This document shows positions 55,344-58,513 of a stretch of DNA of 64,000 nucleotides, piece after piece. Origin of the DNA: an uncultured Verrucomicrobiae bacterium. GTDB lineage: Bacteria > Verrucomicrobiota > Verrucomicrobiia > Chthoniobacterales > JACTMZ01. The notes beneath the pieces are model-generated. The model was not told the DNA's origin, ran no database searches, and was given only the letters and a program-made list of their open reading frames with translations. The position numbers and the translations under genes are program-made. Where the stretch lies: assembly GCA_963776165.1 (NCBI GenBank), contig CAVZLI010000001.1:130658-194657 (forward strand), read 5' to 3'. Each line of letters opens with the position of its first letter. The first letter of the stretch is position 1.

Positions 55344-58300
55344 TTAGCTGCAGCCTTGGCTGGTGCCGCACTCGGTGCAGACGCCGCAGGCGCCGGCGCG
55401 GATCACTTTGCTGCTGCCGCAGTTGGAGCAGGTGGTGTCCATATACATGGTGCCCAGCGCGCCTTGGACGCGTTCGGCGTGGGTGGCGGTGCCGGCGATG
55501 TGAACCGGGGTGCCTTCGCTGTTCTGCGTCTGGGTGATGACGTCGATGATTTCGCGTTCGCCGGTGCGTTGGAGGTCGGAGACCGGGCGGTTGACCGCGC
55601 GGCGTTCCATCTCGGGAATTTCCTTCATGGGGAGTTCCGGCTGGTTGCGGTTGGGCGAGGTGGCTTCTTTGTAGCCTTTGATGAACTGGCAGCCGAGCCA
55701 GCGGAACACGTAGTCGGTGATGCTGATGGCGTTGCGGATGTCCGGGTTCTTGGTGAAGCCGCTGGGCTCGAAGCGCTGGTAGGCGAACTTCTTGACCAGG
55801 CTCTCGAGCGGCACGCCGTATTGCAGCGCCATCGAGGTGAGCGTGGCCACGGTGTCCATCAGGCCGCCGATGGTGCTGCCTTCCTTGGCCATGTGGATGA
55901 AGAGCTCGCCCGGGCTGGCCGTTCTCGAAGAGGCCGACGGTGATGTAGCCCTCGTGGCCGGCGATCTCGAACTTGTGGGTGAGCGCGACGCGGGTGTCGG
56001 GCAGGCGGTGGCGCGGTCGGCTGGTCGAGCTTGCAGCGCAGTGCCGTCGAGTTCGTTCTTCGAGCTCGATGATGCGGTCCTCGAACTCGGTCTTGTCTGC
56101 GAGTTCGGCCTCGAGCTCGGCGGAGCTGCCGGTGCCGTGTTTCTTTCTGTCGGTGATTGAGCGGGGCGGAGCGCTTGGAGCCGTCGCGGTAGATGGCGAT
56201 GGCCTTGAGGCCGAGTTTCCAGCCTTCGACGTAGGTGTCCATGATGTCCTCGACCGTGGCGTGCTCGGGCAGGTTGACCGTCTTGGAGATGGCGCCGGAG
56301 AGGAACGGCTGGGCGGCGGCCATCATGCGGATGTGCGCCGTGGTAGCTGAGGCTGCGTTCCCCGCGCATCGGCTTGAAGGCGCAGTCGAAGACCGGAGAG
56401 TGCTCGGGGCGGAGTCCGCTCCGGTGCGTCTGGCCGTCTTCCGTCGACGTCCTCGATCGTGTCGAATTTGTCGATGTGGGCGATGATGGCTTCGATCTCG
56501 GCGTCGCTGTAGCCGAGGTTCTGCAGGGCGGGGCGGACCGTCTGGTTGACGATCTTGAGCATGCCGCCGCCGGCGAGGAGCTTGTATTTCACCAGCGCGA
56601 TGTCGGGTTCGATGCCGGTGGTGTCGCAATCCATGAGGAAGCCGATCGTGCCGGTCGGGGCGAGGACCGTGACCTGGGCGTTGCGGTAGCCGTGCTGCTG
56701 GCCGAGGCGCCAGGGCTTCGTCCCAGACCTGGCGGGCTTCGTCCTTGAGGGATGCGAATTCGTCGGACTTCTCGATTTTCTCGACGGCGTCGCGGTGCAG
56801 TTGCGATGACTTCGAGCATGGGTTCGACGTTGTCCGGCGCGACGGGTTCTTCGACGCCGCTGGCGCTGGAGTCGTGGTAGCCGGGAAAGGGCCCGGTGAT
56901 GCCGGCGATCCGGGCGCTCTGCTCGTAGGCGTGGCCGGTCATGATCGAGGTGATCGCGCCGGCCAGGGCGCGGCCCTCGTCGGCTGTCATAGCCGTAGCC
57001 GTAGCTCATGATGAGCGCGCCGAGGTTGGCGTAGCCGAGGCCGAGGGTGCGGAAGATGTGGCTGTTCTCCGCGATCTCCTTGGTCGGGTAGCTGGCGTTG
57101 TCGACGACGATTTCCTGCGCGGTGATGAAGATGCGCACGGCGGCCTTGAAGCGCTCGACGTCGAAGGTGCCGTCCTCGCGTTTGAACTTCATCAGGTTGA
57201 GCGAGGCGAGGTTGCAGGCCGTGTTGTCGAGGAACAGGTATTCGGAGCACGGGTTGGTCGAGTTCTGGCGGCCGGTGCCCTTGCAGGTGTGCCAGTTGTG
57301 GATGGTGGTGTCGAACTGCATGCCGGGGTCGCCGCAGACGTGGGTGCCTTCGGCGATCTTGCGGAGAAGGTCGCGGGCGTCTTTCTTCTCGCAGGGCTCG
57401 CCGTCGGTGACGCGGCGGTGGTCCACCATTCGCGGCCGGCGACGGCGGCCTCCATGAACTCGTCGGTGACGCGGACGGTCAGGTTTTCGTTCTGATACAT
57501 GACCGAGCCGTAGGCGTCGCCGTTGTAGGAGCCGTCATAGCCCTGCTCGATGAGCGCCCAGGCTTTCTTCTCCTCGTTCGTCTTGGCCTCGATGAATTCC
57601 TCGATGTCGGGGTGCCAGTCCTTGAGGGTGTTCATCTTGGCGGCGCGGCGGGTTTTGCCGCCGCTCTTCACGACGTTGGCGACCTGGTCGTAGACTTTGA
57701 GGAAGGAGAGCGGACCGCTCGGCTTGCCGCCGCCGCTAAGTTTCTCGCGGGTCGAGCGCAGGGTGGAGAGGTCGGTGCCGGTGCCGCAGCCGTATTTGAA
57801 AAGCATGGCCTCGCTCTTGGCGAGGTCGCATGATGTCCTCCATGGTGTCCTCGACGGACTGGATGAAGCAGGCGCTGGCCTGCGGGTATTCGTATTGCGT
57901 GGGTGCGCGCTCGGCTTCGCCGGTGAGGTGGTTCAAGAACCAGTTGCCTTGGCCGGCGTCTTTGCCGATGCCGTATTGCTGGTAGAGGCCGACGTTGAAC
58001 CAGACCGGGGCAGTTGAATGCGCCGTGCTGGTGGAGGCAGAGCCAGGTGAGGTCGTTGTAGAAGGCCTCGGCGCTGGCGTCATCGGCGAAATAGCCGTCG
58101 CGTTTGCCCCAGTCGGTGATGGTGCGGGTGACGCGGTGGATGAGTTGGCGGATGGACGTCTCGCGGCCGCCTTGGTGCGGATCGGTGCCGTTGGAGATGT
58201 CGCCGTAGAAATATTTCGAGACGGCGATCTTGGTGGCGAGGGCGCTCCAGCTGCGCGGGACTTCGACGTTTTCCTGTTGGAAGATCACTTTGCCTGAGTC

Positions 58301-58513
58301 GTCGTTGATCTCGGCGGTCCGCTTGTCCCATTCGACGTGGTCGAACGGTGTGCCGGACTGCGTGTGGAAGCGCGGTTCGAATTTGAGAGCTTTGCTGCGT
58401 CCGGTCGACCGCGTGCGGCTCGCCGGGGCGGGTTTTGTGGCGCGCGACGAGGCGGAGCGCGAGGAGGACGATTTGCGGGTTTTGGAACGGAAGGATGATT
58501 TTGTTGCGATCAT
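55344..58513 (-). pseudogene. nrdJ: class II (adenosylcobalamin-dependent) ribonucleotide reductase NrdJ, interrupted by at least ten frameshifts
   Basis: NrdJ-like segments are spread over ORFs 57668..58513, 57736..58083, 57192..57806, 56323..57429, 56589..56990, 55859..56629 and 55344..56369. Motifs include [66 protein letters not shown] and [16 protein letters not shown]. The C-terminus ends in a CxxC...CxxC. Confidence 0.88.

What the first reader, a model, noticed from the sequence alone, without database searches (positions are those of the whole stretch)
55344..58513. Class II ribonucleotide reductase gene broken by at least ten 1-nt frameshifts while each segment looks pristine
Recognisable NrdJ sequence hops between all three minus-strand frames. 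The junctions lie at about 58008, 57828, 57430, 56982, 56801, 56708, 56441, 56336, 56157 and 55910. Two more may lie within 55990-56060. Examples: ...HQHGAFN / PVWFNVGLYQQYG; ...EDTMEDIM / DLAKSEAMLFKYGCGTG; ...AGREWWT / HRRVTDGEP; ...SYGYGYDS / DEGRALAG; ...FENGQP / [11 protein letters not shown]. Most are single-base gains or losses, several in short runs (CCCC, GGG, AA, CC), but some are not in runs. Within segments the conserved motifs are intact and I saw no in-frame stops. The terminator, the NrdR-like operators and nrdR itself are also intact. The remaining ~55 kb of coding sequence shows only two comparable events. So the indel density here is far more than ten-fold above the local background. 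The possibilities are a local consensus error, a very recent pseudogene in a lineage with another RNR, or a heterogeneous or hypermutable locus.
Basis: seen in the sequence. Interest (0 to 1): 0.7.

Follow-up and report, generated by a model that had tools for sequence, protein, structure and literature searches.

The report
Assembly-garbled ribonucleotide reductase gene
The vitamin-B12-dependent ribonucleotide reductase gene here is interrupted by 13 small insertions that look like a sequence-assembly error caused by mixing reads from related bacteria, so the gene is most likely intact and ordinary in the real organism.

Summary
nrdJ (55344-58513, minus strand) hops frames 13 times. Every event is an insertion: 12 of +1 nt and one of +2 nt. 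Removing those 14 bases restores a stop-free 1050-aa NrdJ that is 90% identical to the closest full-length orthologue.

It is not a decaying pseudogene. It has 3 mismatches at 514 columns invariant in 33 intact orthologues, which is within the normal range. dN/dS is 0.15-0.19.

The insertions are not random. At 11 of 13 sites the window carries two different bases in tandem where orthologues have one variable column, usually a third codon position, and both bases are common alleles (P = 2.5e-6 to 3e-4). The nearest relative has the window's "own" base at all 11 assessable sites. At 9 of 13 sites the extra base is the majority allele of more distant Chthoniobacterales (P = 5e-7).

Among relatives, comparable frameshifts occur only in Nanopore/Flye-type MAG contigs, are almost all +1, and show the same pattern. 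The only broken short-read locus (L053) carries deletions instead.

Verdict: a local consensus or polishing artefact from mixed templates over a highly conserved gene. The window's own sequencing method is unknown, and reads were not available. Biological interest is low, but the pattern is a useful quality-control signature.

The parts
55344..58513 (-). nrdJ (class II, B12-dependent ribonucleotide reductase). It is 3170 nt as written. Without the 14 extra bases it is 3156 nt, encoding 1050 aa.
   Evidence: Pfam PF08471 + PF02867 (1-523/523) + PF12637. PDB 7b9p 'vitamin B12-dependent ribonucleotide reductase', E = 2e-191.
58006..58007 (-). Insertion 1 (+1): ccCGgtc. Orthologues have ccc or ccg at this third codon position. 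Extra G.
   Evidence: Column alleles are C:8, G:24. The nearest relative L087 has C. L071 (long-read MAG) has an insertion in the same column.
57828..57829 (-). Insertion 2 (+1): atGCgac. Orthologues have atg or ctc. Extra G next to own C.
   Evidence: Column alleles are C:7, G:26.
57415..57417 (-). Insertion 3 (+2): accacCGccgc.
   Evidence: All 33 intact orthologues lack these 2 nt.
56981..56982 (-). Insertion 4 (+1): agcCGacgag. This is a first codon position. Extra G.
   Evidence: Column alleles are C:7, G:24.
56803..56804 (-). Insertion 5 (+1): atCGcaa. Orthologues have atc or atg. Extra G.
   Evidence: Column alleles are C:23, G:6.
56710..56711 (-). Insertion 6 (+1): ctGGcgc. It extends a G, so it is not informative for the two-allele test.
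56442..56443 (-). Insertion 7 (+1): gaCGgaa. Extra C at a third codon position.
   Evidence: Column alleles are T:11, C:11, G:5, A:4.
56339..56340 (-). Insertion 8 (+1): caCGgcg. Extra G.
   Evidence: Column alleles are G:21, C:6, T:5.
56158..56159 (-). Insertion 9 (+1): ctCAatc. Extra C or A.
   Evidence: C is an allele (7 of 33), but A is not seen, so this site does not meet the two-allele criterion.
56061..56062 (-). Insertion 10 (+1): ctCGaag. Orthologues have ctc or ctg. Extra C.
   Evidence: Column alleles are C:16, G:14.
56041..56045 (-). Insertion 11 (+1), lying within gacGgcaCtg. Placement is ambiguous over 4 nt.
56016..56017 (-). Insertion 12 (+1): ccgAccg. Extra A.
55911..55912 (-). 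Insertion 13 (+1): ccCGggc. Orthologues have ccc or ccg. Extra G.
   Evidence: Column alleles are G:21, C:10. L087 has C.
55282..55310 (-). Intrinsic-terminator-like hairpin (gcccgggg / ccccgggc) followed by TTTTT, downstream of nrdJ.
   Evidence: Read directly from the sequence. Not tested further.
58585..58626 (-). Two palindromic, NrdR-box-like elements in the nrdJ leader (ggttgtggctttatagcacaac ... cccacatattgtggtgt).
   Evidence: Read directly from the sequence. Comparison with the NrdR-box consensus is from memory and was not tested.
25584..26111 (-). nrdR (175 aa), intact.
   Evidence: Pfam Zn_ribbon_NrdR 1-42/42 and ATP-cone.
61478..61478 (-). Background +1 insertion in the family-4 uracil-DNA glycosylase gene (atggCtcgg).
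   Evidence: Alignment to L009. The stitched protein matches Pfam UDG 1-140/141.
4219..4235 (-). Background frame shift of +1 in a TPR-protein gene, probably an extra G in aaactcGtcc.
   Evidence: The stitched protein gives TPR hits across the junction. No orthologue was available to fix the exact base or confirm that it is an insertion.

Best explanation
The 14 extra bases are not in the organism's DNA. They are a local consensus or polishing artefact of a long-read-type assembly, most probably of a metagenome.

nrdJ is an island of very high nucleotide conservation in Chthoniobacterales. I infer that reads, or graph paths, from a second nrdJ template were piled up with the genome's own reads over this gene. 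The second template could be other co-occurring Chthoniobacterales, a sister strain, or a paralogous copy. At sites where the two templates differ, the consensus kept the genome's own base and also the foreign base as an adjacent extra base. A single-nucleotide difference was therefore written as a 1-nt insertion, which shifts the frame.

The real gene is most likely an intact, functional, NrdR-regulated class II ribonucleotide reductase of 1050 aa.

Shown: the events, their insertion-only nature, the intact selective signature, the two-allele pattern, its direction, and its recurrence only in long-read assemblies of relatives.

Inferred: the read-level mechanism, the identity of the second template, and the sequencing and assembly method of this window.
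For: (1) All 13 events are insertions; sign test P = 1e-4. With the two background events read as +1 gains, it is 15 of 15.

(2) Removing them gives a 1050-aa ORF with no stop, 942/1049 identical to L005 NrdJ. It has 3 mismatches at 514 invariant columns, against 0-12 for intact orthologues in a leave-one-out test. dN/dS is 0.15-0.19, against 0.08-0.13 for intact pairs.

(3) At 11 of 13 sites the inserted base and its neighbour are two different alleles, each present in at least 5 of 33 orthologues at one adjacent variable column, mostly third codon positions. The null expectation is 0.22, P = 2.5e-6; with a looser criterion P = 3e-4.

(4) The closest relative, L087 (93% nt), carries the window's 'own' base at all 11 assessable sites. 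The inserted base equals the majority allele of 25 more distant orthologues at 9 of 13 sites, against a null of 0.10, P = 4.6e-7.

(5) Among 80 GTDB loci plus L001 and L002, single-base frameshifts in full-length nrdJ occur in 9 of 21 contigs that I classed as long-read from their names. They total 17 of +1, 1 of +2 and 2 of -1, and show the same tandem-allele contexts. The only short-read locus with a frameshift past residue 90 is L053, which carries deletions; L045 has an unexplained interruption nearer the start.

(6) 80 of 80 JGI metagenome contigs are open across the 2.15-kb core (this set has a selection bias).

(7) The MFD MAGs among these are Nanopore R10.4.1, Flye plus one round of Medaka (PMC12313526). 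Flye collapses related strains into consensus contigs, and residual indels cause frameshifts (PMC8302730).

(8) nrdJ is 85-92% identical to close relatives, against 67-87% for the flanks. It aligns by blastn to 66-83 loci, against 7-8 for the flanks.

(9) L002 is a second independent case with 8 events in nrdJ and largely intact neighbouring genes.
Against: No reads are available, so the mechanism is inferred.

The sequencing technology and the origin of the window are unknown. It matches no contig in the collections searched; the best match is 93% nt.

Other presumably conserved genes in the window (methylmalonyl-CoA mutase, mutS, metG) show no events, so conservation alone does not explain why only nrdJ is hit.

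The events are not concentrated in the sub-segments most conserved with distant relatives. Mean identity around events is 0.70, against a null of 0.74.

Two of the 13 events do not fit the two-allele pattern.

I found no paper that describes this exact 'both alleles in tandem' artefact.
Confidence: 0.85

Rival explanations
1. It is a genuine, very recent pseudogene. The 13 insertions are in the DNA, nrdJ is dead, and another RNR (class I or III, or a second nrdJ) supplies dNTPs.
For: The frame really is broken 13 times in the sequence as given. The rest of the genome cannot be inspected, so a second RNR cannot be excluded. dN/dS is slightly higher than in intact pairs (0.15-0.19 against 0.08-0.13).
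Against: Bacterial pseudogenes are generally held to be deletion-biased (my own knowledge), yet there are 13 insertions and no deletions. There are no stop codons, and only 3 of 514 invariant residues are changed. Assuming several substitutions accrue per indel (my own rough figure), neutral decay long enough to collect 13 indels should have changed tens of invariant residues. The inserted bases match alleles of other species (P = 5e-7), which no mutational process explains. The promoter region, terminator and nrdR are untouched. No other RNR is seen in the 64 kb.
Confidence: 0.04
2. These are random long-read errors from locally low coverage. No second template is involved, and a thinly covered stretch was simply left unpolished.
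For: Long-read MAG loci of relatives carry a general background of about 0.1 frameshifts per kb, including in flanking genes (L020 has 4, L001 1, L040 1). Those are also mostly +1.
Against: Random errors would not prefer variable columns or reproduce the alleles of relatives. About half of the events are not homopolymer extensions. It gives no reason for a coverage hole that coincides with one conserved gene.
Confidence: 0.08
3. It is programmed recoding. The mRNA is read through by 13 ribosomal +1 frameshifts, or is corrected at the RNA level.
For: All shifts go in the same direction, and the encoded segments are under purifying selection.
Against: The 13 sites share no motif or slippery sequence (contexts). 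None of the intact orthologues compared site by site, including the closest at 93% nt, carries any of the insertions. No bacterial precedent for this is known to me.
Confidence: 0.005

Closest known systems
Residual indel and frameshift errors in long-read (Nanopore/Flye/Medaka) metagenome-assembled genomes, and strain-collapsed consensus contigs (PMC9262707, PMC12313526, PMC8302730, proovframe preprint 10.1101/2021.08.23.457338)
   Same: The gene is broken by 1-nt indels while the protein segments stay intact. Among relatives, such breaks occur only in long-read assemblies. The literature says strain or species mixtures are collapsed into one consensus.
   Different: The usual description is of homopolymer-linked errors, often deletions, spread along the genome. 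Here the events are insertions only, about half lie outside homopolymers, they are 110-fold concentrated in one conserved gene, and they carry a specific signature of own allele plus foreign allele in tandem at polymorphic sites.
Class II (NrdJ) ribonucleotide reductase of Chthoniobacterales, e.g. L005 (CAJBKE010000052) and L087 (Ga0129345_1006064)
   Same: After correction it is 90% aa identical to L005 and 93% nt identical to L087 over the 2.16-kb core. It has the same length and the same domains (PF08471, PF02867, TSCPD and the C-terminal Cys cluster). The upstream neighbours and the downstream tRNA-Gln are the same as in L005.
   Different: As written, the window gene has 14 extra bases.
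Split nrdJa/nrdJb genes of Pseudomonas aeruginosa (recalled from memory, not tested here)
   Same: In some relatives the C-terminal part is called as a separate ORF of 180-330 aa.
   Different: Those short ORFs result from contig ends or frameshifts, not from a conserved two-gene arrangement. Intact orthologues are single ORFs of about 1050 codons.

Membership tests
Class II B12-dependent ribonucleotide reductase (NrdJ) | Domain architecture Ribonuc_red_2_N + Ribonuc_red_lgC barrel (+ TSCPD / C-terminal Cys tail) | tested here: met
   Corrected protein: PF08471 E = 1e-20, PF02867 E = 4e-130 covering 1-523/523, PF12637 E = 3e-10. PDB 7b9p 'vitamin B12-dependent RNR', E = 2e-191.
Class II B12-dependent ribonucleotide reductase (NrdJ) | Catalytic thiyl-radical loop (N-P-C-S-E) and C-terminal redox cysteines present | tested here: met
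   NPCSEY and CSNCG...CGVCTECG are present in the corrected sequence. Their roles are assigned from general knowledge of RNRs.
Class II B12-dependent ribonucleotide reductase (NrdJ) | A single uninterrupted ORF in the sequence as given | tested here: not met
   There are 13 frame breaks. The feature is met only after removing 14 bases.
Decaying pseudogene | Relaxed selection: excess non-synonymous change, loss of invariant residues, nonsense codons | tested here: not met
   3 of 514 invariant columns are changed (intact genes range 0-12). dN/dS is 0.15-0.19. No stop codons remain after correction.
Decaying pseudogene | Mixed indel spectrum, with deletions at least as common as insertions | tested here: not met
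   13 insertions and 0 deletions.
Decaying pseudogene | A functional replacement (another RNR) in the genome | not testable with these tools
   Only 64 kb are available, and no other RNR is seen in it (gene list, read by eye; only five products were checked with Pfam).
Programmed ribosomal frameshifting / recoding | A shift site with a shared motif, conserved in orthologues | tested here: not met
   There is no common motif. The insertions are absent from every intact orthologue compared site by site, although one long-read MAG (L071) has an insertion in the same column as the first event.
Long-read consensus artefact from mixed templates | Indels coincide with sites polymorphic between templates and reproduce both alleles | tested here: met
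   11 of 13 events, P = 2.5e-6. Inserted base equals the distant-majority allele at 9 of 13 sites, P = 4.6e-7. The own base equals the nearest relative's base at 11 of 11 sites.
Long-read consensus artefact from mixed templates | The same kind of break is seen in long-read but not in short-read assemblies of relatives | tested here: met
   9 of 21 long-read loci are broken, mostly by +1 events. Short-read loci are intact apart from L053 (deletions) and L045 (an unexplained interruption near the start). I classed assemblies by contig naming and by PMC12313526.
Long-read consensus artefact from mixed templates | Read pile-up shows two haplotypes, with no single read carrying the tandem alleles, and this assembly is long-read based | not testable with these tools
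   No reads and no provenance are available for the window.

The most novel reading that the evidence does not exclude
The artefact reports real biology. Two diverged nrdJ alleles coexist at comparable frequency within this one population, or the genome holds two nrdJ paralogues, for example after a recent horizontal replacement or recombination at nrdJ. In that case the locus really is heterogeneous, even though the printed sequence is a garbled merge. A far less likely alternative is that the insertions are physically present and the gene is a freshly killed or recoded nrdJ.
Probability: 0.2. Interest if true: 0.3.

Novelty: not a real feature. Interest (0 to 1): 0.1.

Why it matters
For biology, it matters little. 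The organism most likely has an ordinary, intact, NrdR-controlled NrdJ.

For genome quality control, it is useful. An automatic annotator would call this essential gene a pseudogene or split it into about ten ORFs, and metabolic reconstructions would then score the MAG as lacking an RNR.

The signature found here has three parts:
- insertion-only frameshifts;
- the genome's own allele plus a foreign allele in tandem at variable codon positions;
- concentration in a gene that is unusually conserved across co-occurring relatives.

This gives a read-free way to recognise and repair such artefacts. It also suggests that highly conserved genes in long-read MAGs from complex communities are specifically at risk.

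Tried and rejected
- **Identifying the source genome.** The C-terminal protein search gave 94% identity at best. Cluster members reached at most 97.7% over the last 171 aa and have different downstream genes. The genome contigs and metagenome-contig scans gave 86-93% nt at best. No same-species sequence exists for a direct comparison.
- **A single donor lineage for the foreign alleles.** No one relative carries all the alternative alleles. Sliding nearest-neighbour analysis was uninformative, because many relatives sit at about 90%.
- **Insertions in the sub-segments most conserved with distant relatives.** This is not supported: 0.70 against a null of 0.74.
- **Frameshift rate in nrdJ versus flanks of long-read relatives, from tblastn HSP pairs.** The result was noisy, because reference ORFs from long-read loci are themselves frameshifted. 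Only events supported by many references were used. Enrichment across relatives is modest, about 3-fold and driven by L002. nrdJ is therefore not a universal hot spot.
- **The near-identical contig lengths and coordinates of L002 and L005.** This is a coincidence. They share only nrdJ, at 78%.
- **Rfam.** Only tRNA-Gln was found, and there is no riboswitch in the leader.
- **A common sequence or methylation-type motif at the 13 sites.** None was found by inspection. Most doublets are C+G, which is what third-position polymorphism in a 64% GC genome predicts.
- **Literature.** I found no paper describing this exact artefact.
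Full report
**What is there.** The minus strand of 55344-58513 encodes a class II (B12-dependent) ribonucleotide reductase whose reading frame changes repeatedly. 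The closest homologues are NrdJ proteins of Chthoniobacterales, Verrucomicrobiota.

I aligned the window against 8 and then 33 intact orthologues. I also aligned the L005 protein to the window DNA with a frameshift-aware dynamic programme. Both give the same 13 events: 58006, 57829, 57417 (+2), 56981, 56803-4, 56711, 56443, 56339, 56158-9, 56062, 56041-45, 56017 and 55911. All are insertions, 12 of one base and one of two bases. There are no deletions.

Taking out the 14 bases leaves 3156 nt. This encodes a 1050-aa protein with no stop codon, 942/1049 identical to L005 NrdJ. It has a complete Pfam architecture (PF08471, PF02867 1-523/523, TSCPD) and an E = 2e-191 match to the solved B12-dependent RNR 7b9p. 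The 'two more' in 55990-56060 are three. The 'gains or losses' are gains only.

**Is it more than chance?** I trained a codon-position HMM on the window's long ORFs and ran it over all 64 kb. I then checked every same-strand frame change against the position of the stop codon. This flags only two further frameshifts: a family-4 uracil-DNA glycosylase gene at 61478 and a TPR-protein gene at about 4225. The UDG event is an extra C relative to L009. The stitched UDG protein matches Pfam UDG over 1-140/141. The TPR event is also a frame shift of +1, but no orthologue was available to confirm it as an insertion.

So 13 of 15 events lie in 3.17 of 56.8 coding kb. That is binomial P = 5e-15, about 110 times the background rate.

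**Not a decaying gene.** At 514 protein columns invariant in 33 intact orthologues, the corrected window protein has 3 mismatches. The same leave-one-out count for the intact genes ranges from 0 to 12, with a median of 2-3. dN/dS against the nearest relatives is 0.15-0.19, compared with 0.08-0.13 among intact pairs.

Assuming several substitutions accrue per indel (my own rough figure), neutral decay long enough to collect 13 indels should have changed tens of invariant residues and produced stop codons and deletions. None of this is seen. The leader with its NrdR-box-like palindromes, the terminator hairpin and nrdR itself (25584-26111, Zn-ribbon plus ATP-cone) are all unaffected.

**The insertions carry a signature.**
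- At 11 of 13 sites the window has two different bases in tandem where all orthologues have a single variable column. This is usually a third codon position, and twice a first position.
- Both bases are common alleles of that column. Examples are ccc/ccg giving ccCGg, atg/ctc giving atGC, ctc/ctg giving ctCG, and atc/atg giving atCG.
- I compared this with random insertions of random bases into the same alignment. The pattern is expected in 22% of cases if both alleles must occur in at least 5 of 33 orthologues, and in 35% with a looser criterion. That gives P = 2.5e-6 and 3e-4 respectively.
- The pattern has a direction. The closest relative found, L087 (93.1% nt), carries the window's 'own' base at all 11 assessable sites.
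- The extra base equals the majority allele of the 25 more distant Chthoniobacterales orthologues at 9 of 13 sites, against a null of 0.10, P = 4.6e-7.

No known mutational process in one genome selects alleles of other lineages. A consensus built from a mixture of templates would produce exactly this.

**Relatives.** I examined 80 GTDB species-representative loci plus two ENA contigs.
- Single-base frameshifts in full-length nrdJ occur in 9 of 21 contigs that I classed as long-read from their naming. These are the MFD 'contig_N' MAGs and L001 and L002.
- Those frameshifts total 17 of +1, one of +2 and two of -1. Their contexts show the same tandem-allele pattern, and L071 is hit in the same column as the window's first event.
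- The only short-read locus with a frameshift past residue 90 is L053, which carries deletions. L045 has an unexplained interruption nearer the start.
- All 80 JGI metagenome contigs returned for the 2.15-kb core have one open frame. The tool's ranking favours uninterrupted matches, so this set is biased.
- The MFD MAGs are Nanopore R10.4.1 assemblies made with Flye and one round of Medaka (PMC12313526). Flye is known to collapse related strains into consensus contigs, and residual indels are a known cause of frameshifts (PMC8302730, PMC9262707).
- Long-read loci also have frameshifts in flanking genes, at roughly 0.1 per kb. nrdJ is therefore not a universal hot spot. The window and L002 (8 events, with mostly intact neighbours) are the outliers.

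**Why nrdJ?** nrdJ is an island of nucleotide conservation. It is 85-92% identical to the close relatives, where the flanks are 67-87%. It aligns by blastn to 66-83 of the loci, where the flanks align to 7-8. Short-read contigs frequently end inside the gene, which fits assembly-graph ambiguity there.

I infer that reads or graph paths from a second nrdJ template were merged with the genome's own reads over this gene. The second template could be other community members, a sister strain or a paralogue.

This step is not shown. The events are not concentrated in the sub-segments most conserved with distant relatives. If anything they sit in the more divergent stretches. That would fit messy alignments between conserved anchors, but it is not a positive test. 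Other conserved genes in the window are clean.

**Verdict.** The interpretation 'local consensus error', caused by template heterogeneity, is well supported (0.85). 'Recent pseudogene' is not supported (0.04). Random low-coverage error is unlikely (0.08), and recoding is negligible. The feature is not real biology. The organism most likely has an ordinary intact NrdJ. Raw reads would settle the question.

Noticed in passing
window 61478 (gene about 61257-61800, minus strand): The family-4 uracil-DNA glycosylase gene is broken by a single extra C (atggCtcgg, where L009 has atgg-tcgg). The stitched protein matches Pfam UDG end to end.
   Followed up: yes
window about 4219-4235 (minus strand): A TPR-repeat protein gene upstream of the exbB/exbD-like genes changes frame by +1, probably through an extra G in aaactcGtcc. 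That would again be a C+G doublet at a Leu third position. No orthologue was available to confirm it.
   Followed up: partly
window 58010-58012 and 57786-57788 (minus strand): There are two Ser-to-Cys changes (AGC to TGC) in NrdJ at positions invariant in 33 orthologues: GAFN[C]PVWFN and KYG[C]GTG. They could be substitution-type consensus errors from the same cause, or they could be real.
   Followed up: no
alignment columns 880-990 of nrdJ (NrdJ residues about 165-195); window 58006 and loci L071, L040, L055, L002, L049, L020: Seven independent long-read assemblies each have a +1 insertion within the same stretch of about 110 nt. About 1.2 of 34 events would be expected there. The window and L071 are hit in the identical column. 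This hot region is unexplained.
   Followed up: partly
L084:1-521, L085:1-523, L086:1-519, and many 171-aa and 182-aa hits: Independent JGI short-read contigs begin 4-8 nt upstream of the same Met (FIxMAKEGS) of nrdJ. Of the 80 GTDB loci, 17 have a contig end inside the gene. Metagenome assembly graphs seem to break within nrdJ.
   Followed up: partly
L053 (QHNB01000213) and L045 (JBOHXL010000013): Two short-read MAG contigs also have an interrupted nrdJ. L053 has a deletion of about 118 nt plus a -1 event. L045 has an interruption in the first third of the gene without a frameshift detected past residue 90. These could be real lesions or scaffolding errors.
   Followed up: no
window 43527-55006: By eye, from the translations only, nrdJ lies next to a B12-dependent methylmalonyl-CoA mutase (44999-47962). 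It also lies next to a reductive pyrimidine-catabolism-like cluster: dihydropyrimidinase 51685-53217, an NCS1 permease, a class-III aminotransferase, and methylmalonate-semialdehyde dehydrogenase 53513-55006. tRNA-Gln lies at 55080-55153.
   Followed up: no
L002:3066-3157, L054:3028-3119: A tRNA-Ser(CGA) gene sits about 350-450 nt upstream of nrdJ in the soil clade. It is 97-100% identical between loci whose nrdJ genes differ by 15%.
   Followed up: yes
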